Shown piece after piece: positions 158 to 11,434 of a DNA stretch of 11,452 nucleotides (within the stretch, counting starts at the first letter, position 1; each line of letters starts with the position of its first letter). Both the position numbers and the translations under genes were made by a program. The stretch is from a virus (lineage: Duplodnaviria > Heunggongvirae > Uroviricota > Caudoviricetes). The notes under the pieces were generated by a model. The model worked only from the letters and a program-made list of their open reading frames with translations, searched no databases and was not told where the DNA came from. The stretch lies in the IMG/VR virus record IMGVR_UViG_2778261693_000002, positions 1 to 11,452 of that record; one strand, 5' to 3'.

Positions 158-212
158 TGGAGCACCTCAAAAACACCATCATACACTAAATCAGTAAGTT
201 GGCAGCATTACC
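1..212 (-). mobile_element. IS1 insertion sequence, partial (left ~212 bp including terminal inverted repeat at 190-212; element continues beyond window start)
   Basis: Reverse complement of 1-212 reads GGTAATGCTGCCAACTTACTGATTTAGTGTATGATGGTGTTTTTGAGGTGCTCCAGTGGCTTCTGTTTC..., i.e. the IS1 left terminal IR followed by the insA start. Recognised from memory of IS1, not searched. Sequence changes abruptly to AT-rich DNA at 213. Confidence 0.85.
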
Positions 213-689
213 AATTTTCTCTTCTATATTACCAGTTTCAGCTGCAATTGCAGATATACCTGAATTATATAATTCTAATCTGCGTAAAATTTGCTTTGGT
301 AATAAATTTCTATCTTTCAGCCTCTCAAATGAAAAAAGGTCATTAATCCTATGAGAGATATATAACATTGAAATAACATAAGATGGTATAGCGGTTTGTT
401 GAACTGATGCGTTACCATTGTTTATATGATTAATATTTTGCTGAGCATGATCCAGAGTGTAAATGAGCGCATCAATTACTGCAATGTCATCTGAAGATGG
501 TACAAATTCCTGCATCTGATTAATTCTATCAGATAACATTTTTGGTAGTTCTATCAGATCCTCTTTATGTAAAAAAGGAAATGTGTACGGCCCAAGGTTT
601 ATAAAATCTTCCACAGGGAATACAAGACCATTAAGTGTTGTATGTAAATTATCTAGTTTCTCTTTTAATTCAGTTAGTTTTTCGTTCAT
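186..689 (-). CDS. AT-rich hypothetical protein (orphan cargo gene); frame runs into IS1 and stops 8 codons inside the IS1 terminal repeat, so the native C-terminus is probably lost
   Basis: Long ORF in low-GC DNA. ATG at 689 is preceded by AAGGA (revcomp of 698-702); the longer track start at 836 has no RBS and sits directly on the upstream terminator T-run. Last codons GNAANLLI* are encoded by IS1 sequence 186-212. No recognisable family. Confidence 0.45.
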   Translation of the reverse strand: MNEKLTELKEKLDNLHTTLNGLVFPVEDFINLGPYTFPFLHKEDLIELPKMLSDRINQMQEFVPSSDDIAVIDALIYTLDHAQQNINHINNGNASVQQTAIPSYVISMLYISHRINDLFSFERLKDRNLLPKQILRRLELYNSGISAIAAETGNIEEKIGNAANLLI

Positions 690-845
690 TAAAAAATCCT
701 TTATGACGCTATCGAACTTCCAGAGTAATCCGATAAAGATATCATAAGACAATATTTTGGTATAAACACTTATTGCGCGCGCTCGTATCCCCGCCACGCC
801 TGCCCGCTTTATGTAGTGGTTTTCATGCACCTGCATGATCTACGC

Positions 846-1588: not shown

Positions 1589-4003
1589 TTAATACAGGTT
1601 TCGCCACTTATCATCTTCCTGCAAACGCTGGTTCCGATAGAAGATACGCAGGCCTGCTCCTGACGGAATACTGCCGCCGCGAAGCAGTAAATCGACCTCT
1701 TTCTCGCTGCCATCAAATCCCCTGGACTTCAGTTCATACACGAGCTGCTGTCGCTGATGATCTGTAATTCGCTGTTTGTAGTCTTTACGCCGTTTCGGTT
1801 TCACAAGGCGTAACCTTGCTGCCAGTTCCCGGCGCTCTTTTTTGCTCATACTGTGCAGGTAATCGTGCAACTCCTTGTCATCCATGCGGGTGATATCCGT
1901 TCTGGTATCTCCATCAGCTGATTTGTCTTTCCCTTGTTGGTACAAATTTTCAGCAAGGGGACAGTTATTGCCACGAGTCCAAGGGGCGCAAGCGCCCTGG
2001 TCGGCTGCCGCCTCCTGAACGTCAACGGCCTTACGAACCATTTTCCACTTCACTGCATGAGTGCAGATCTTGCCCTCTGCAATGGGTGACCAGATGCCAT
2101 AAATACGAATACCGTGATCGCCATAGGCGGTTGGCTCTTCGTTGATTTCATAAGCGGTTCTGATGAGGTGATATTTGCGGGGAACCAGTACGCCGCCCTG
2201 CTTCATGATGTAGGTGGCAAAACAACCAGCATCAGCAGCAGCCAGGATGGCATCAAGGCGCGGGTTATCCAGTACCGACGCACCTGCTTTTTTGTCACCC
2301 TGTTGCCTTGCCGCCTGACCAGCCAGCAATCGCAGTTCACGGTAAGCCTGACGCCCCGGAATGCCAAAGAAGCGGAATTGCTGAACACGATGCAGAGACG
2401 CCCAGGCATTAACGTATTCAGCGTTATCACGCAGGGATTTCCCCGTTTCCTTACTGATCTCGCCAGCCAGACCACGCCCGTCAATATTCTTACTGATATA
2501 TTTCGCAATGTAGCTTGTCGGCGTTCCTTTGCGCGGGTTTATCAGCTCAGACTTAAAGCGTGGCCCCGTGTTATTGCCCAGCTCCTCGCGGTCTTCACGG
2601 ATGGCAAACTTACGCAACAATGCAGTAATGGCGCGGCGGTCTTTTTTGCGCATGAAACACAACAGGTGCCAGTGAACTGTGCCATCATGATGCGGCTCAG
2701 CCACCCGCACGCCATACCAGCGCAACCCGGCTTTGTGCATAGCCTTACGAAATGCAGCAAACATGCCGACCAGATAATCGCTGCTTTGTCTTACTGTCGC
2801 GTTGGTCCAGGTCGGGTTTGGCCTGCCGTTATTTAGCGTGGAATGGAAACGTGACGGACAGGTGATGGTGTAGAAAACGGCGCAGTCACCGCGCATTTCC
2901 GCGATAAGCTCCAGGCCTTTAACACAGGCCATCATCTCGTTGCGGCGATGCGCCGGGTTGCTGCTGCTGGCGTTTACCACATCCTCCATGTTCAGCGTGT
3001 CGCCGTCTTCGTTCACCAGTTCATGAGAACGGAAAAACTCCAGCGACTTACGGCGCTGCTCACGTTTATGCATCACGGCTTCATAGCTGACATAGGGAGA
3101 TGCTTTTTTGCTGACCAGGCAGACAGCACGCAACTGCTCTTCCCGCCATTCGCAACGCATCTTCCATAATTTCCGATACCACCAGTCGGCGCACAGCATA
3201 CGCGCCAGCGAACCCGGAATGCGTTCATAAGGCACAGGTTTGCGGCGGTTTCTTTTCCGGCGGAGTTGCTCAAACGCAGGCGGTATGACATCCAGTCGCA
3301 GGGTTTCTGCAGCCACCTTTTCCCATGTCTTGCGGATTTCTTCTGGCTTAACATCATCGGAGGCGTACAAATCACCACAAGCGGCATCAAGACACATGCT
3401 CATATGCGCAGCGACAAGGGTAGACAGGCGTTTCACCTGATCCTGACTCATTTCAGGCAGGATCAGCAGACCGTCCAGCCCTTCATGGCTTGCCATAAAC
3501 CGAAAAGATGCAGATAGCTGGCTGTCGCGTACATGCTCCAGTCGTTCCAGACATGGCTTAATCGTCTCACGCAAATAGCGGGAATAAGCCTTTGGCCTGC
3601 CCAGGCTGCTGAAGTATTCAATACGTTGCATCAGCGGCTTGCTGATATGGGAAGGCTGGGCGTTGACGTCAGCCAGAATGACCATGTCTGGATTAAAACG
3701 CTGCTGCTCATGCGCCATCTTTGCCCGGCTAATGAGCTTATCCTGCTCCATTTCGCGTTGGACAGGATCACGGGATTCATTAAAGAAATAACGCTCCCAG
3801 ACCTGATCACTTAGTGCCTCGCGGCGCAGTTGTTCCTGCTCGTTATCGGTAGCGTACAAAGTGATCAGGTTTGAAAGCGCAGAAACCGGCGCAACTTCCA
3901 CCGGGTCCAGATAAGGGTTAATGGCCTTTTTCGGGCTGTTCCATGAGAATGCTGCGGCGACCTCGTTAAAGCCGCTGCAGTTGTTCATATCAGCATGGCT
4001 CAT
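1589..4003 (-). CDS. Replication initiation endonuclease, phage P2 gpA family (HUH rolling-circle initiator)
   Basis: 804-aa ORF; HUH motif VHWHLLCF and paired-tyrosine active-site motif YIAKYISK; ATG 4003 overlaps the upstream Dam stop (ATGA); RBS GGAG 8 nt upstream. Confidence 0.9.
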
Positions 4004-4857
4004 GCACGCACTCCGTACACGGCAGAACTATCCACGCCACGCGAAGGATCAAATCCCATCCAACAGCGCGGCCCGGAAACAGCGATGATTTCTGTTGCAG
4101 ATTTACTCTCACCAGCTGCTACACCGATGCTGCGTTTTGCCTTGATGTAGTGGTGAGTAAAATTGCGATACAGCGAACGGATCAGGGATGTATCACTGTT
4201 AGAAACAATGACCGGATGTCCTTCTGATGACCGATGTTCAAGAACGGATGCCAGGTGATACTGGTCATCTTCAGTGAAACCATCAGTGTGATAGCCGGAA
4301 AACGTACCGTCATACGGCGGATCGCAATACACCACATCCCCCACCTGCAGCATCGCCAGCGTTTCATCAAAGCTTGCGCAGATAAACGTTGCACGCTGGG
4401 CCTTTTCTGCAAATGCGCGAATTTCTTTTTCAGGGAAATACGGATTTTTATAATTACCGTAGGGAATGTTGAAATGCCCGCTCTTGTTATAGCGACATAA
4501 ACCACGGTAACCGTGACGATTGAGATACAGGAAATATACCGCTTTCATGAAATCAGTAATTTCAGTTGAGTAATTAAACTCCTGCCTTATGTTGTAATAA
4601 GCCACCTCCCTGTTTGCGATCTCAAATAAAACTCTGGCGCGAGATATAAACGATTCACAATCAGCAGCAACCTTTTTATAGAGGTTGATTAAATCAGGAT
4701 TAATATCCGCAACAAGATAGCTGGGGTAATCCGTCTCCATCATCACAGCACAGGAACCCGCGAAAGGTTCAACCAGTCGCGGGCCAGCAGGAAGATGTTT
4801 TTTCAGTTCGGACATAATGGCAGTTTTATTACCCGCCCATTTCAGGATGGTGCTCAT
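4000..4857 (-). CDS. dam: DNA adenine methyltransferase (Dam-like, N6-adenine, GATC class)
   Basis: 285-aa ORF with KWAGNK, FAGSCAV (AdoMet-binding region) and catalytic DPPY motif ([10 protein letters not shown]); RBS GGAGGTG; start overlaps the stop of the upstream gene (ATGA). Confidence 0.85.
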
Positions 4858-5894: not shown

Positions 5895-6404
5895 TCACAG
5901 CAAACCAAATGAAGCACCGAGGCCAGTCACGGTATCAACTGCACTCGCCATCGCAGGATTAGCCTGTAAACGGGCCTGCAATGAAACAGCCGCCAGCGCC
6001 ATCAGTCGTGTTACAGAGTTAATGCTGCTGATAGCATCACGACGACCGGCGCAGGTTTTTACATCGCCAGACACCGCACCTGCAGCAACACGCCCGATCT
6101 CTGCGGTTGCACTCATGACGTAATGTGGCAGTTTCTCTTTTGCCACCTCATTAATCGGTACACATGGCAGACAATGAATCTGTGCCAGAAAACCATCTAT
6201 CAGCGTTGAGTCTTCTGTCAGATCGGTAAGCAGCCAGATTTCTGGCGCATTGAGCTGATGCGGTTGATCTGGGTTGAGTTTGTTTCGCAGTGTCTGAACA
6301 TTCATTCCTGCACGTTCTGCCAGCTTCGCCATATTGTGACGTAGTGCAAAAGCTCTACAGGCTTCATCAAAATACGGATGTTTGGAAATCTTGTAATCAA
6401 ACAT
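5895..6404 (-). CDS. CII-like transcriptional regulator (HTH), second gene of the lytic operon
   Basis: 169-aa ORF, the same length I recall for phage 186 CII and in the same position (directly after apl); HTH-like segment MAKLAERAGMNVQTLRNKL; RBS GGGGG 4 nt before ATG 6404. Confidence 0.55.
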   Translation of the reverse strand: MFDYKISKHPYFDEACRAFALRHNMAKLAERAGMNVQTLRNKLNPDQPHQLNAPEIWLLTDLTEDSTLIDGFLAQIHCLPCVPINEVAKEKLPHYVMSATAEIGRVAAGAVSGDVKTCAGRRDAISSINSVTRLMALAAVSLQARLQANPAMASAVDTVTGLGASFGLL

Positions 6405-6800: not shown

Positions 6801-7433
6801 ATGTTAAACATCAGAATGGGTTCCGATACGGGAGGTAAAGCAGCTATTGAGAGGCTGCTTGCGGCTTATGGATTCACAACTAAGCAGGCATTAAGTGAGC
6901 ACCTGAATGTCTCAAAAAGCACTATGGCAAACAGAGTGTTACGTGACAGCTTTCCTGCTGACTGGATAATTCAGTGCGCACTAGAAACCGGTGTTTCGTT
7001 GCTTTGGTTAGCTACAGGACAGGGAAGCATGAAAGCAGGATCTGAGACTGAAAAAAGATCTCACAATGAGAACAAACAAGCAATTAAACCGTTATCTAAA
7101 CTCATAACTCCATCTATTCCTAAAGGAACCTTGGAGAATGGACAACTCAGTATTGATGAAGAGATTTTCCTAGACCACAGCATATTACCTGCAAATTATG
7201 AAGAATCGATGTTCTTAGAAACCCCTACTGATTGTTATCTCATCGATAAATCAGTTAAACAAGTCAGCAATGGATTCTGGCTTATCAATATTGATGGAAT
7301 GATTATTATTGCAAAAATTATGCGGATTCCCGGCAATAAGATTGTAGTAAATCAAGATGAAGCGTCTTTCGAGTGCTCTGCTGATGATGTGGAAGTTATT
7401 GGGCGTGCAGTCAAAGTAATAAAGAGTATCTAA
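6801..7433 (+). CDS. CI-type immunity repressor (N-terminal HTH, C-terminal domain)
   Basis: 210-aa ORF immediately upstream of and co-transcribed with int (stop 7431-7433, int ATG 7436); HTH-like TTKQALSEHLNVSKSTMANRV; RBS GGAG; divergent from apl across the switch region. Confidence 0.7.
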   Translation: MLNIRMGSDTGGKAAIERLLAAYGFTTKQALSEHLNVSKSTMANRVLRDSFPADWIIQCALETGVSLLWLATGQGSMKAGSETEKRSHNENKQAIKPLSKLITPSIPKGTLENGQLSIDEEIFLDHSILPANYEESMFLETPTDCYLIDKSVKQVSNGFWLINIDGMIIIAKIMRIPGNKIVVNQDEASFECSADDVEVIGRAVKVIKSI

Positions 7434-7435
7434 AC

Positions 7436-8452
7436 ATGACTGTCAGAAAACAGCCAAACGGCAAATGGTTGTGTGAGTGCTATCCCAATGGACGCAATGG
7501 CAAGCGCGTGCGTAAGCAATTTGCTACGAAAGGAGAAGCCATTGCTTTTGAAAGCTTCACAATGGAAGAAGTGAATAAAAAACCGTGGCTAGGTGAAAAG
7601 GATGATCGGCGACGCCTATCAGAATTAATTGAGCTTTGGTATTCCCTGTATGGTCAGACACTCGCAGACCCCAGGCGCCTCATGGCGAAACTTAGAATTA
7701 TCTGTAATGGTCTAGGCGACCCCATCGCCTCAGAACTGACAGCCGGTGACTTTACGAAATACCGCGAAGCACGGTTAAAAGGCGACGTTCGTAACGAAGA
7801 CGGCACACTAATGTCGCCAGTAAAACCACGCACGGTGAATCTTGAGCAACGTAACCTATCATCGGTTTTCGGCACATTGAAAAAACTAGGCCACTGGTCA
7901 GCACCAAATCCTCTCGCCGGGCTGCCAACATTTAAAATCGCTGAGGGGGAACTGGCGTTCCTGACCTCGGAAGAAATTAAACGTCTGCTAGATGCCTGCG
8001 CTGATTCTCAAAACCCCAGTCTGCTTTTGATTGCAAAAATATGCCTGGCCACCGGCGCACGCTGGAGTGAAGCCGAAAACCTGCAGGGCCATCAGTTATC
8101 TAAATACCGCATCACTTATACCAAGACGAAGGGCAAGAAAAACCGCACCGTGCCGATATCTCAAGATCTGTATGACGAACTCCCCAAGAACAGAGGGAAG
8201 CTATTCACTCCGTGCAGAAAAGCCTTTGAACGGGCAGTAAAGCGAGCTGGCATCGAGCTGCCAGAGGGCCAATGCACTCACGTGCTACGTCATACATTCG
8301 CCAGTCATTTTATGATGAATGGCGGAAACATACTGGTGCTACGCGATATTCTGGGCCATGCCGATATAAAAATGACGATGATTTACGCCCACTTTTCGCC
8401 CGATCACCTTGAAGATGCGGTTACTAAAAACCCTTTATGCAACTTAAGATAA
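7436..8452 (+). CDS. int: Tyrosine site-specific integrase (P2/186 type)
   Basis: 338-aa ORF; catalytic-domain signature ARWSE...HVLRHTFASHF...GHADIKMTMIYAHF (R, H-x-x-R, Y); size and position typical of P2-like int. Confidence 0.9.
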   Translation: MTVRKQPNGKWLCECYPNGRNGKRVRKQFATKGEAIAFESFTMEEVNKKPWLGEKDDRRRLSELIELWYSLYGQTLADPRRLMAKLRIICNGLGDPIASELTAGDFTKYREARLKGDVRNEDGTLMSPVKPRTVNLEQRNLSSVFGTLKKLGHWSAPNPLAGLPTFKIAEGELAFLTSEEIKRLLDACADSQNPSLLLIAKICLATGARWSEAENLQGHQLSKYRITYTKTKGKKNRTVPISQDLYDELPKNRGKLFTPCRKAFERAVKRAGIELPEGQCTHVLRHTFASHFMMNGGNILVLRDILGHADIKMTMIYAHFSPDHLEDAVTKNPLCNLR

Positions 8453-8765
8453 AGTAACTTATGAAAATAAACTCAAATTATTTACAAATATAATATTCAG
8501 CAGGTTATTTATTCTTATTTAACTCTTCAGACTGAGATTAGGTTTTATTTATAGAATAAGATAATTTCATATCACAAAAAACCTGTAAGCCCTCATCTTT
8601 GTTGTATAAAAACATAAAAGATGCCATATTCAAAAAAGTAGAAAAGCATTGCAATGCAACATTAAAAATAAGCCAATAAAAAACAGTCATTAGAAAATGA
8701 AAAAACCAAAAACATTTTTTATCAAAGCTTCAGTCTGACTACTAGTTTGACTCTGCAATTAACTA

Positions 8766-8797
8766 TCAAGATGATCAATATTTATTGATCATCTTGA
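8766..8797. repeat. Perfect 15-bp inverted repeat (TCAAGATGATCAATA tt TATTGATCATCTTGA) containing two GATC sites
   Basis: Exact reverse-complement arms read directly from the sequence; lies 33-64 nt downstream of the deaminase-fusion stop; no flanking U-tract on either strand. Confidence 0.6.
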
Positions 8798-8829
8798 AGC
8801 TGCCCTCAGGAAAGATGAGTATAATATTT

Positions 8830-10566
8830 CTACTCAAGAAGATATTCTAACTCATCTTTTATCGGGATAACTTGCTCATAAAGTCGGTGATATGACTTCC
8901 CAATTGCGCCTCTGAATTGTATTAACTTTGGTGGCTTGTTACCTATATTAATAATATGGTCTTGGGCTATACCTGGGTAGGGATCAATAAATACAATTTC
9001 AGATATACCTAACTGATAAGCTTTTTTCGCACACAGCTCACAGGGACTGGCAGTTGTATATAACCTTCCCCCCTGAACGCCAATACCACCATATTTTGCA
9101 AGTTGTAAAAAAGCGTTTTCCTCAGCATGTAATGCACGTGTATGAACTTGATTACCTTTTTTATCTTTATCAAGATCATTATGTATATCTTTAAAACAAT
9201 AAGATAAGTTCCTGCCTCTATAAATATCACCAGTTTTATCTATCGCCCTAAAATTTAAGAGTTTCTCATTAGCCTTAATTCTGAAAGAACTATTATTTCT
9301 CTCATAATGACTGTACACTTTTTCATCAAAGTCGTTCATTAGGCCATCTAGCGATCTCATAGAGCAAGGAATCTGACCGTTGGCAACATCATTCCAACCT
9401 ACTGATTTTATTGAATTGTCACCATCAGTTACTACAGCTCCCACCTGTCTAGATATACAACCAGAGTTTAATTTTACCGTATACGCAACTTGCATAACCC
9501 TTTCCATTGCAGTAGGTGTTATCAGACCAGGATGCTTCATCAGTGCGATGTACCACGCTAATTGTGCTTTTAAAATATTATCATTATCAAATTCATTTTT
9601 TGGGTTAAAAATGTGTATATCTGATAGTTCAATACATTTAGTTACATTTGGATTAGTGAGATGTTTGTAAGAGTTATCACCTTTACCTGACTCTACAGAA
9701 TCTATTTCCTCTATCTGCTTTTCAGAAAACTTATGTAGTTTCCGCAAATAGTTTGTTCGATGTTCATCTGGGGCATTTATTGACATTAAATGAAATGCAG
9801 AATATCTATCCTTAAAAAATTTTGCTTCATATGGATTTCTAATAGCATCTATGACAATTAATGCGTTATCTCTTTTGCTTTTTCTTATTAATTTAATAAC
9901 CCTATTAATAGTTTCCGGCAAATGAAAAACAGATTTAGGTATAAACTCTTTATCTTCAAAATCGACTTCAATACGCCCACGGCGTCTAATTGACTTACCT
10001 GCTAACTGATAGACTGAAACATATAAATTTGAGTTTATCGCATTTAGTTCAGCTTTGAATTCCTTAGTAAATTTTCTAACTAACCTCAAAATTGATATAA
10101 ATTTATTAATCGTTTTTTCATTAAGCTTCAATTCACTATTATGATCAAGCAAATTCTCAATTACATTTTTAAATCTTGTTAAAATTAGATTATCTGAGAA
10201 TACACCAAAAGTTAATACATTATCTAAATGCTCTTTACTGATAGATTTATTAGATGACAGAATGAATTCAGAAGCTTCTTCAACTGTTAACATCAAAAGA
10301 TACGCTGAGATTAGGTCACTCACCTTAATTGAGTAAAAATTTTCCCAGTGATTTTCTGCGAATTTTTTAACTATATTATAACGATGGACATCCAATCCCT
10401 TGTAAAAACCCTGTAATTTACTTACATCAGGGAAGACTGTTTTTTCGTTTTCAAGAATATTAGCTGTTGTTGTGCAACCAGAACCAGTTCGACCTGTCAA
10501 ACCGACTAAAATAAACTGCCCATTTTCAAGGAAAAGCTCACTAACGAATTTTTTTTCTTTCATCAC
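8830..10566 (-). CDS. P-loop-kinase-like + dCMP/cytidine-deaminase fusion protein (AvcD/DCD-like candidate anti-phage deoxynucleotide deaminase)
   Basis: 578-aa ORF in low-GC DNA. N-terminal Walker-A-like VGLTGRTGSGCTT (10468-10503, Lys replaced by Cys). C-terminal deaminase signatures RQVGAVV, zinc ligands HAE (9121-9129) and PCELC (9031-9045). Start is GTG 10566 or ATG 10563. Family assignment from memory, no search. Confidence 0.75.
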   Translation of the reverse strand: MMKEKKFVSELFLENGQFILVGLTGRTGSGCTTTANILENEKTVFPDVSKLQGFYKGLDVHRYNIVKKFAENHWENFYSIKVSDLISAYLLMLTVEEASEFILSSNKSISKEHLDNVLTFGVFSDNLILTRFKNVIENLLDHNSELKLNEKTINKFISILRLVRKFTKEFKAELNAINSNLYVSVYQLAGKSIRRRGRIEVDFEDKEFIPKSVFHLPETINRVIKLIRKSKRDNALIVIDAIRNPYEAKFFKDRYSAFHLMSINAPDEHRTNYLRKLHKFSEKQIEEIDSVESGKGDNSYKHLTNPNVTKCIELSDIHIFNPKNEFDNDNILKAQLAWYIALMKHPGLITPTAMERVMQVAYTVKLNSGCISRQVGAVVTDGDNSIKSVGWNDVANGQIPCSMRSLDGLMNDFDEKVYSHYERNNSSFRIKANEKLLNFRAIDKTGDIYRGRNLSYCFKDIHNDLDKDKKGNQVHTRALHAEENAFLQLAKYGGIGVQGGRLYTTASPCELCAKKAYQLGISEIVFIDPYPGIAQDHIINIGNKPPKLIQFRGAIGKSYHRLYEQVIPIKDELEYLLE

Positions 10567-10758
10567 GTCCCACTTATGAATGTAAGAATATTCAACATAT
10601 TAATTATAATTTATTAACTCATTTTGTTCTAGATACTTGATGTAATGGCGGCATTTTGGCGACGGAGCATTAAAAACGCGTAAGACGAGCAAATACAACA
10701 AAACACTAACACACTGTTTTTAAATATAAATAGCTGTTTTTACTATACTAAAAATGGT

Positions 10759-10803
10759 ATGTAGGAATTTCGGACGCGGGTTCAACTCCCGCCAGCTCCA
10801 CCA
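10759..10803 (+). other. ssrA: Duplicated 3' end of the tmRNA gene ssrA (att core copy; tRNA-like T-arm, acceptor strand and CCA), not a complete gene
   Basis: ATGTAGGAATTTCGGACGCGGGTTCAACTCCCGCCAGCTCCACCA: T-stem GCGGG/CCCGC with T-loop TTCAACT, 3' acceptor strand and CCA; matches the remembered E. coli ssrA 3' end. The upstream ~300 nt is AT-rich and unlike tmRNA. Confidence 0.7.
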
Positions 10804-10987: not shown

Positions 10988-11434
10988 TTGGCAAGAACGA
11001 CACGCCCCCTGACCAACACAGAAGTACTGCGCGCTAAAGCGTTAGAAAAGGATCTAACGTTGCATGATGGCGATGGTCTTTTTCTACTCGTTAAAACGAA
11101 CGGTAAGAAGTTATGGCGTTTCCGTTATCAACGTCCGGCAACAAAGCAGCGGACAATGATGGGGCTAGGTACCTTCCCAGCTCTTTCACTTGCTGACGCC
11201 CGACGGTTAAGAGCGGATTACCTTTCCTTGTTAGCCAACGGAATTGACCCGCAAATTCAAGCTGAAATTGCAGAGGAACAGCAGCAAATCGCACAGGACA
11301 GTATTTTTACAACGGTCGCCGCTAAGGAAGGTGCGAATAAGCAGGTCATTTCTTCCCAAGCTGACTCGTTGATTAAAATTTCGCGGATCTGGGCCGATTT
11401 TTTTCCCGCAAACACATCGAATCAGCCTATTTAG
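10988..11434 (+). pseudogene. P4-type integrase, N-terminal fragment (~110 aa of arm-binding domain, then divergent tail and premature stop)
   Basis: TTG start with strong RBS AAGGAG; MARTTRPLTNTEVLRAKALEKDLTLHDGDGLFLLVKTNGKKLWRFRYQRPATKQRTMMGLGTFPALSLADARRLRADYLSLLANGIDP fits the N-terminus of P4/CP4-57-family integrases (~400 aa full length) as remembered; ORF ends at 148 aa with no catalytic domain. Confidence 0.55.

What the first reader, a model, noticed from the sequence alone, without database searches (positions are those of the whole stretch)
8766..8797. Perfect 32-bp palindrome with two Dam (GATC) sites in the cargo 3' region
Seen: exact 15-bp arms around a TT centre, 33-64 nt downstream of the deaminase-fusion stop, in the AT-rich spacer shared with the convergent int gene. 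It lacks a U-tract, so it is not a canonical intrinsic terminator. The prophage encodes its own Dam methylase (4000-4857), so a methylation-sensitive protein-binding site or RNA-processing hairpin is conceivable (inference). A 12-bp palindrome GCATTGCAATGC also occurs at about 8649-8660.
Basis: seen in the sequence. Interest (0 to 1): 0.35.

Follow-up and report, generated by a model that had tools for sequence, protein, structure and literature searches.

The report
Integrase-gene fossil kept as 3' hairpin
The perfect 32-bp palindrome is real, but it is a leftover scrap of an old phage integrase gene that sits just after an anti-phage deaminase gene and appears to have been kept as an ordinary RNA stem-loop at the end of that gene's message, not as a Dam-methylation switch.

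Summary
The palindrome (8766-8797, 15-nt arms, TT centre, two GATC) is exactly as described and far beyond chance. It lies inside a 186/Fels-2-like prophage at ssrA, in a cargo slot between int and attP that holds an AvcD-type anti-phage dCTP deaminase. The palindrome is a fossil of the 3' end of a second, older integrase gene. On the + strand it still reads IKMxxIY / DHLExAxxK, the motif around the catalytic tyrosine, with about 14 nt deleted. In related phages an intact int abuts the deaminase and contains the same imperfect inverted repeat. In sister lineages (Citrobacter, Siccibacter, Enterobacter) the remnant is CAAGATGACC-13 nt-GGTCATCTTG, with no GATC. The stem is constrained: 0/26 stem sites vary against 5/7 loop and 35/115 flanking sites (P~3e-5), and 0/32 against 46/345 in the window lineage (P~0.01). 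The ancestral U·G pair became C-G in one lineage and U-A in the other. The hairpin is always more stable in the deaminase-sense RNA (about -20 kcal/mol). Best reading: an exapted 3'-UTR stem-loop that defines or protects the deaminase mRNA 3' end. The Dam idea is not supported. Modest interest.

The parts
8766..8797 (-). Perfect palindrome. As RNA it forms a 14-bp stem with a 4-nt loop; the functional strand is proposed to be the deaminase-sense (minus) transcript.
   Evidence: -19.3 kcal/mol deaminase-sense, -18.1 int-sense. Invariant in 14 distinct window-type sequences while 13% of neighbouring spacer sites vary.
8773..8790 (.). The two GATC sites (8773-8776, 8787-8790), 14 bp apart centre to centre.
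   Evidence: Not conserved: GACC/GGTC in L072, L076, L224 and L225.
8750..8829 (+). Fossil of the 3' end of an older P2-like integrase gene. It reads T-IKM-I-N-IY (frame 0), then DHLEAALRK..N (frame 1) after a ~14-nt deletion of the AHFSP codons, and it abuts the deaminase stop as an intact int does in L083. The left limit (~8750) is approximate.
   Evidence: Translations. Local alignment to the int 3' ends of L083, L077 and L086 scores 34-35, and 0/500 shuffles reach that.
8453..8668 (+). Decayed 5' remnant of a 208-aa gene that follows int in sister phages (ATG at 8462, stop after 10 codons).
   Evidence: blastn 70-76% identity to L072 and L076; the gene is intact in L072, L073, L076, L224 and L225.
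8830..10566 (-). AvcD-type anti-phage dCTP deaminase (the cargo gene whose 3' UTR holds the palindrome). RefSeq relatives start at the ATG at 10563.
   Evidence: NCBIfam NF041025, 424 bits against a cut-off of 400; PADLOC dCTPase 1e-145; Pfam dCMP_cyt_deam_1; RefSeq name.
7436..8452 (+). The functional prophage integrase (convergent with the deaminase). Its own codons for the same motif do not form the inverted repeat.
   Evidence: Pfam Int_N and Phage_integrase.
8811..8859 (-). Second hairpin (AAAGATGAGT / ACTCATCTTT) spanning the deaminase stop codon. It is perfect only in the window and is probably incidental.
   Evidence: the variable site at 8813 breaks one pair in relatives; not conserved in L072.
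10645..10803 (.). attP arm homology (10645-10758) plus attR core, a 45-bp copy of the ssrA 3' end (10759-10803). This shows that the deaminase and the palindrome lie inside the prophage; the cargo slot is 8453-10644.
   Evidence: homology to Fels-2 int-attP and to E. coli E308.
8646..8657 (.). 12-bp palindrome GCATTGCAATGC inside the 208-aa gene remnant. Not conserved; no function inferred.
   Evidence: broken in L002, L093 and L131.

Best explanation
The palindrome is a relic of the last ~80 nt of an ancestral P2-like integrase gene that once abutted the convergent AvcD deaminase gene (shown). A later rearrangement placed a new int 3' end plus a 208-aa gene upstream and orphaned the old int tail (inferred from gene order). 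In that tail, the codons for IKMT and DHLE already formed an imperfect inverted repeat 24 nt apart. After loss of coding constraint the interior was shortened, to 13 nt in the Citrobacter/Siccibacter lineage and 10 nt in the E. coli lineage, and the one wobble pair was converted to a Watson-Crick pair (shown). The stem has been kept under purifying selection (shown statistically). The proposed function (inferred) is an RNA stem-loop of about -20 kcal/mol in the 3' UTR of the deaminase mRNA, 33-64 nt after the stop. It marks or protects the transcript 3' end against 3'-5' exonucleases in the way U-tract-less stem-loops do at the ends of E. coli Rho-dependent transcripts. It may also impede read-through into, and from, the convergent cI-int unit. 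The two GATC sites are by-products of the Asp-His codons and their mirror image.
For: Origin:
- Reading frames IKMxxIY / DHLExAxxK.
- Significant alignment to int 3' ends.
- An intact int contains the same repeat 6-17 nt from the deaminase stop in L083 and in 11 of 15 spacing-24 viral contigs.
- An int pseudogene sits at the same place in L077-L082 and L226.

Constraint:
- L072-type group: stem 0/26 variable, loop 5/7, other non-coding 35/115, P=3e-5.
- Window-type group: 0/32 against 46/345, P=0.01, with variable sites at 8765 and 8800-8804 close to or abutting the arms.
- L131 keeps a 14-bp stem despite a 4-nt loop insertion.

Pairing:
- RNAalifold finds 11 conserved pairs. One pair is U·G (intact int, 5 sequences), C-G (4) and U-A (3).

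Strand:
- The deaminase-sense RNA is more stable than the int-sense RNA in every class: -21.7/-14.3, -21.3/-16.0, -19.6/-13.9, -19.2/-13.7, -19.3/-18.1. The reason is G·U pairs, and those positions are invariant in the L072 class.

Position:
- Pseudomonas homologues carry canonical terminators at +27 to +56 after the stop, the same place.

Precedent:
- Stable stem-loops without U tracts define and protect 3' ends of E. coli Rho-dependent transcripts (PMC6061677).
Against: - No transcript data; the function is inferred.
- There is no U tract, and the 45 nt downstream on the deaminase-sense strand are G>C, so they do not look like a rut site (own count).
- Sequence conservation of the arms, not only covariation, would also fit a DNA- or protein-level role.
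- Only one pair shows alternative Watson-Crick states.
- 72%-identity deaminase loci in other contexts lack this stem and have unrelated hairpins. L083 has a weaker version (-12.4). So the deaminase does not strictly need this particular structure.
- The polymorphism tests treat sites as independent and the lineages as a star.
Confidence: 0.6

Rival explanations
1. Neutral relic. The int tail is junk, and its quasi-palindrome was made perfect and shortened by replication template-switching (quasipalindrome correction) and slippage, with no function.
For: The origin as a pseudogene scrap is shown. Template-switch mutation in E. coli is known to convert imperfect inverted repeats into perfect ones (PMC7202029). 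One templated event could explain the C->T change plus ATGG->AATA in the left arm (own reading). The neighbouring 208-aa gene is decaying in the same lineage.
Against: A neutral scrap should vary like its surroundings, yet stems show 0/26 and 0/32 variable sites against 30% and 13% around them. In the L072 class two G·T positions remain uncorrected yet invariant, which fits RNA G·U pairing rather than DNA palindrome perfection.
Confidence: 0.2
2. Dam-methylation-sensitive protein-binding site. A regulator, or SeqA, reads the two GATC sites in the palindrome, coupled to the prophage Dam.
For: Two GATC sites 14 bp apart in a symmetric site; the prophage encodes a Dam-type methylase; the arm sequence as well as the pairing is conserved.
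Against: GATC is absent from the conserved homologous stem in L072, L076, L224 and L225 and from L083, and is present on one arm only in the other intact-int alleles. Half-site spacing is 10, 13, 14 or 24 nt in different lineages, which does not fit a fixed dimer. No half-site recurs elsewhere in the window beyond chance. There is no GATC enrichment. The site lies at a gene's 3' end, not at a promoter.
Confidence: 0.04
3. The main role is on the other strand, or on both. The hairpin would be a bidirectional barrier ending the cI-int transcript so that it does not run antisense into the deaminase gene, or a DNA cruciform or recombination breakpoint of the cargo slot.
For: In the window lineage the palindrome is perfect, so both RNAs fold about equally (-19.3/-18.1). 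It lies between convergent units. The slot between int and attP exchanges cargo: AvcD, GapS1 or none.
Against: In all other classes the int-sense hairpin is 4-7 kcal/mol weaker. In L072-type phages an intact 208-aa gene ends 70 nt before it and the constrained G·U pairs do not pair in the int sense. No U tract on either side. No second copy or direct-repeat scars.
Confidence: 0.12

Closest known systems
U-tract-less protective stem-loops at the 3' ends of E. coli Rho-dependent transcripts (Dar & Sorek 2018, PMC6061677)
   Same: An energetically stable stem-loop a few tens of nt after the stop codon, not followed by uridines, in E. coli. The proposed role is protecting the mRNA from PNPase and RNase II and fixing the steady-state 3' end.
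   Different: No transcript mapping here. The sequence immediately downstream is not C-rich/G-poor as a rut site would be. The origin is a pseudogene fragment.
REP (repetitive extragenic palindromic) elements as mRNA stabilisers (own knowledge)
   Same: An imperfect or perfect palindrome between convergent genes that can stabilise upstream mRNA without terminating.
   Different: Single copy per genome. There is no REP consensus and no sign of RAYT-type mobility. It is found only beside this deaminase.
Rho-independent (intrinsic) terminators
   Same: The position relative to the stop matches where Pseudomonas homologues carry canonical terminators. Stem stability is comparable.
   Different: There is no U tract and the stem is AT-rich (5 G-C pairs of 15). 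The consensus scan does not call it.
Quasipalindrome template-switch mutation hotspots (PMC7202029)
   Same: An imperfect inverted repeat became a perfect one, as templated mutation does.
   Different: That is a mutational mechanism, not a function. It can explain how the perfect form arose but not why the stems stay invariant.
Dam-regulated GATC clusters (pap, agn43, IS10; own knowledge)
   Same: Paired GATC sites in a symmetric element in a Dam+ host.
   Different: The GATC sites are not conserved, they are not at a promoter, and no partner protein site is evident.

Membership tests
Intrinsic (Rho-independent) terminator | G+C-rich stem-loop | tested here: inconclusive
   The stem is stable (-19 kcal/mol) but AT-rich, with 5 G-C pairs of 15.
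Intrinsic (Rho-independent) terminator | Run of U immediately 3' of the stem | tested here: not met
   There is no T run after the stem on either strand. The same holds in the L072, L076, L077 and L083 forms.
Protective 3' stem-loop of Rho-dependent transcripts | Stable stem-loop shortly after the stop codon, not followed by U-rich sequence | tested here: met
   The position is +33 to +64 in the window and +29 to +90 in relatives.
Protective 3' stem-loop of Rho-dependent transcripts | Steady-state RNA 3' end at the base of the stem; Rho or exonuclease dependence | not testable with these tools
   Needs Term-seq or 3' RACE, with or without bicyclomycin, and pnp/rnb mutants.
Protective 3' stem-loop of Rho-dependent transcripts | rut-like C-rich, G-poor tract just downstream | tested here: not met
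   The 45 nt after the stem on the deaminase-sense strand hold about 6 C and 10 G (own count).
Structured RNA element under selection | Stem conserved or compensated while loop and flanks vary | tested here: met
   0/26 stem, 5/7 loop and 35/115 flank sites vary. 0/32 against 46/345. One pair occurs as UG, CG and UA.
Integrase (tyrosine recombinase) 3' pseudogene fragment | Recognisable residues of the C-terminal catalytic-Tyr motif, in order, at the position where relatives have int | tested here: met
   IKMxxIY + DHLExAxxK; alignment beats 500/500 shuffles; an intact int is at the same place in L083 and L086.
Dam-methylation-sensitive regulatory site | GATC sites conserved in homologous elements | tested here: not met
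   GACC/GGTC in four sister lineages; one GATC or none in intact-int alleles.
Dam-methylation-sensitive regulatory site | Differential methylation or competing binding protein | not testable with these tools
   Needs methylome (SMRT or Nanopore) data and footprinting.
REP / MITE-type repeated palindrome | Multiple dispersed copies per genome | tested here: not met
   One copy in the window. There is one place per E. coli genome, always beside the deaminase. All deaminase-free hits in viral and metagenome scans are unrelated sequences.
AvcI antitoxin RNA of AvcID | Encoded upstream of avcD in the same operon | tested here: not met
   The palindrome is downstream of the gene. AvcI is described as lying upstream, with no terminator between avcI and avcD (PMC10511110).

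The most novel reading that the evidence does not exclude
In the ancestral arrangement the last codons of a functional integrase gene doubled as the 3' hairpin of the convergent defence gene's mRNA, with synonymous codons chosen to pair. Among 60 distinct int alleles encoding the same peptide, the deaminase-abutting allele ties for the most stable antisense hairpin. When int was displaced, only this dual-use segment was retained and sharpened. That would be a traceable case of coding sequence exapted into a stand-alone RNA element of an anti-phage system, possibly tuning how long the toxic deaminase message persists after host transcription shut-off.
Probability: 0.2. Interest if true: 0.45.

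Novelty: new member of a known kind. Interest (0 to 1): 0.25.

Why it matters
The result removes a tempting but unsupported epigenetic reading: a Dam switch next to a prophage-encoded Dam. It also shows that apparent 'spacer' DNA beside defence cargo can consist of traceable gene fossils. If the hairpin does set the 3' end or half-life of the AvcD deaminase mRNA, it belongs in constructs used to study AvcID/dCTP-deaminase defence, where native 3' regions are often trimmed. The int-attP interval of 186/Fels-2-like phages also emerges as a cargo slot carrying AvcD, GapS1 or nothing.

Tried and rejected
- tRNA and Rfam scans of the window found nothing.
- The promoter/terminator scan found no terminator and no excess of promoters.
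- Half-site search: no further copies in the window beyond chance, so the palindrome is not a repeated operator of CI, Apl or Int.
- AvcI antitoxin RNA: rejected, because AvcI lies upstream of avcD.
- attR in the spacer: rejected, because the ssrA 3'-end copy is at 10759-10803, beyond the deaminase.
- The genome-wide survey of 68 deaminase loci found no shared 3' palindrome outside the int-associated clade.
- The metagenome scan for short-spacing variants gave only three more window-type copies plus an unrelated GC-rich repeat family. My pattern required TT before CAAG, so it could not catch L072-type variants.
- Link between the 208-aa gene and the deaminase: the 208-aa ORF near avcD in L077 is unrelated, and no defence-library hit was found.
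- Association of the int hairpin with deaminase adjacency: suggestive, but confounded by shared ancestry.
- The 12-bp palindrome at 8646-8657 is not conserved and was dismissed.

Full report
OBSERVATION. The arms are 8766-8780 (TCAAGATGATCAATA) and 8783-8797 (TATTGATCATCTTGA), 100% complementary around TT. GATC lies at 8773-8776 and 8787-8790. The minus-strand ORF 8830-10566 ends with TAG at 8832-8830, so the palindrome lies 33-64 nt downstream of that stop. There is no T run on either side, and the consensus scan calls no terminator in 8300-9000. It is far beyond chance. In 60 first-order Markov resamples of the window the longest perfect inverted repeat with a loop of 10 or less had arms of 7-13 nt. 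None of 2000 resamples of the 27%-GC spacer reached 15.

CONTEXT. The window is the early/immunity end of a 186/Fels-2-like (P2 family) prophage:
- gpA 1589-4003(-)
- Dam-type methylase 4000-4857(-)
- CII 5895-6404(-)
- CI 6801-7433(+)
- Int 7436-8452(+)

About 20 of 5426 complete E. coli genomes carry the same int-spacer-gene arrangement, and RefSeq names the gene 'anti-phage dCTP deaminase'. This is confirmed by NCBIfam NF041025 (424 bits, cut-off 400) and PADLOC dCTPase (1e-145). In those genomes the prophage sits at ssrA. A 45-bp copy of the ssrA 3' end (attR core) is at window 10759-10803, beyond the deaminase. Homology to the int-attP interval of Fels-2 and of an E. coli prophage carrying GapS1 resumes at about 10645. 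So the deaminase and the palindrome are prophage cargo in a slot (8453-10644) between int and attP. The antitoxin RNA AvcI of AvcID systems is encoded upstream of avcD (PMC10511110), so the palindrome is not AvcI.

WHAT THE 'SPACER' IS MADE OF. The closest non-E. coli relatives of the deaminase are 89% identical in protein and come from Citrobacter portucalensis, Siccibacter colletis, Enterobacter hormaechei and a metagenome (L071-L076, L224, L225). They have the same CI-int context but an extra 208-aa gene directly after int, convergent with the deaminase. Window 8453-8668 is a decayed 5' remnant of that gene: 70-76% DNA identity, ATG at 8462, stop after 10 codons. A 76% relative (L083) has an intact int whose stop lies 6 nt from the deaminase stop. 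In 11 of 15 viral contigs of the 'spacing-24' class, an intact int (91-95% identical to the window Int) likewise abuts a convergent deaminase. L077-L082 and L226 have an int pseudogene there.

ORIGIN OF THE PALINDROME.
- In L083, L077 and L086 the int codons ...D-IKMTM(V/I)Y(A/S)HFSPDHLEDA... read ATCAAGATGACC-24 nt-GA(T/C)CATCTTGAAG. This is an imperfect inverted repeat.
- The window's + strand reads T-IKM-I-N-IY* in one frame and (I)DHLEAALRK..N in the next. That is the same motif with about 14 nt (AHFSP) missing, running up to the deaminase stop just as the intact int does in L083.
- Local alignment of 8669-8829 against these int 3' ends scores 34-35, and none of 500 shuffles reaches that.
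- The sister lineage has a different remnant: CAAGATGACC-13 nt-GGTCATCTTG (TKMTKCY / PGHLV).
- The window's functional int encodes the same peptide with other codons and has no such repeat.

The palindrome is therefore a fossil of the tail of an older integrase gene that travelled with the deaminase. The two GATC sites come from the Asp-His codons GAT-CAT and their mirrored partner.

IS THE STEM MAINTAINED? Three lines of evidence say it is.

(i) Among four L072-type lineages that differ at 30% of neighbouring non-coding sites (35/115), the 26 stem positions never vary, while 5 of 7 loop positions do. The loops are GGTAACA, GAGAGAA and GAGGTAA. P(0/26) is about 3e-5.

(ii) Among 14 distinct window-type sequences, 0/32 palindrome sites vary against 46/345 elsewhere in the spacer (P about 0.01). 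Variable sites lie at 8765 and at 8800-8804, close to or abutting the arms. L131 has a 4-nt insertion in the loop and keeps a 14-bp stem.

(iii) RNAalifold on 12 sequences of all classes gives 11 conserved pairs. One pair is U·G in intact int alleles (5 sequences), C-G in the L072 class (4) and U-A in the window class (3). Each orphaned lineage repaired the wobble by a different single change.

The distance between the conserved 10-mers is 24, 13, 14 or 10 nt in different lineages. That fits a hairpin and does not fit a fixed dimeric binding site.

WHICH STRAND? In every class the deaminase-sense RNA folds better than the int-sense RNA:
- L072: -21.7 against -14.3 kcal/mol
- L076: -21.3 against -16.0
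- L077: -19.6 against -13.9
- L086: -19.2 against -13.7
- L083: -12.4 against -8.3
- Window: -19.3 against -18.1

The reason is G·U pairs that exist only in that sense. In the L072 class the two G·U positions are invariant yet were never 'perfected' at the DNA level. Four structurally different variants converge on about -20 kcal/mol. In Pseudomonas homologues the same position (+27 to +56) holds canonical terminators.

MECHANISM PROPOSED. I propose a 3'-UTR stem-loop of the avcD mRNA that fixes and protects its 3' end. This is how stable stem-loops without U tracts work at the ends of E. coli Rho-dependent transcripts, where they shield against PNPase and RNase II (PMC6061677).
- Shown: the origin, the conservation pattern and the strand asymmetry.
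- Inferred: that transcripts end there, and that stability or termination is the selected effect.
- Weak points: there are no RNA data. The sequence just downstream is G>C, so it is not rut-like. The 72% homologues in other contexts use unrelated hairpins.
- Possible downstream terminator (inference): a weak A/T hairpin plus T runs at about 8700-8722 (minus strand) could be where some transcripts actually stop before trimming back.

RIVALS.
(a) Neutral relic perfected by quasipalindrome template-switching (PMC7202029). This probably explains how the perfect form arose, but not the invariance of the stems.
(b) Dam-sensitive site. The GATC sites are absent from the conserved sister stems, the spacing varies, GATC is not enriched (41 against 38.5 expected), and no half-site recurs elsewhere.
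(c) Bidirectional barrier for cI-int read-through, or a recombination breakpoint. This is possible as a secondary role in the window lineage, where both strands fold equally, but it is not supported in the other classes.

NOVELTY AND SCORE. This is an ordinary kind of element, a 3' stem-loop, with an unusually traceable origin as an exapted integrase tail. In a sample of 60 distinct int 3' ends encoding the same peptide and not selected on the repeat, the antisense hairpin ranges from -5 to -19.2 kcal/mol (median about -9.5). The deaminase-abutting allele ties for the most stable, with a 3-nt-different allele that has no deaminase. This hints that int codons may already have served as the deaminase's 3' hairpin, but shared ancestry confounds the comparison. 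Interest is modest (0.25). The main value is to replace an attractive epigenetic story with a documented evolutionary one, and to flag the hairpin for anyone cloning this defence gene.

Noticed in passing
window 8453-8668; intact in L072 5872-6498(-), L076, L224, L225: A 208-aa gene with hydrophobic N- and C-termini and no Pfam, NCBIfam or PADLOC hit sits between int and the deaminase in Citrobacter, Siccibacter and Enterobacter phages. In the E. coli lineage it is reduced to a 5' remnant. A same-length ORF near avcD in L077 is unrelated.
   Followed up: partly
window 8453-10644; L222 3163-4683; L223 1663-1780: The int-attP interval of these 186/Fels-2-like ssrA prophages is a variable cargo slot. 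It holds the AvcD deaminase here, a GapS1 family gene in E. coli E308, and nothing in Fels-2 (118 nt from the int stop to attP).
   Followed up: partly
window 10567-10644: Only about 78 nt separate the deaminase start from the attP-arm homology. There is a plausible TAGAAC-17-TATAAT promoter but little room for an upstream AvcI-like antitoxin RNA. Either AvcI overlaps the attP arm or this module lacks one.
   Followed up: no
L137, L143-L149, L158-L214 (about 45 metagenome contigs; two copies in L212 at 4371-4412 and 11805-11846): A GC-rich repeat family, TTCAAGATGATCA-(N)-CTATTGCGCGC-(N)-TGATCATCTTGA, with arms 20 nt apart, is found in sediment metagenomes (Ga0315274, Ga0307378-80). It looks like a REP/MITE-like element of an uncultured organism. 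It shares the arm sequence by chance, with no deaminase or int nearby.
   Followed up: no
window 186-836 (-): A 216-aa ORF in a 33%-GC patch downstream of the gpA replication gene has no Pfam, NCBIfam or PADLOC hit. It occupies the P2 old/tin-type cargo position, where E. coli 5735 has an HNH endonuclease and a DUF4145 protein instead.
   Followed up: partly
window 8811-8859: A second hairpin (AAAGATGAGT / ACTCATCTTT) spans the deaminase stop codon and shares the AAGATGA motif with the palindrome. It is perfect only in the window. Relatives have a mismatch at 8813, and the L072 class lacks it.
   Followed up: yes
window 10988-11434 (+): The N-terminus of a P4/CP4-57-type integrase (Arm-DNA-bind_3) lies directly after attR. 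The P2-like prophage is therefore inserted at ssrA in tandem with a second integrative element. In strains 5735 and FDAARGOS_1337 the deaminase is instead followed by ypjA.
   Followed up: partly
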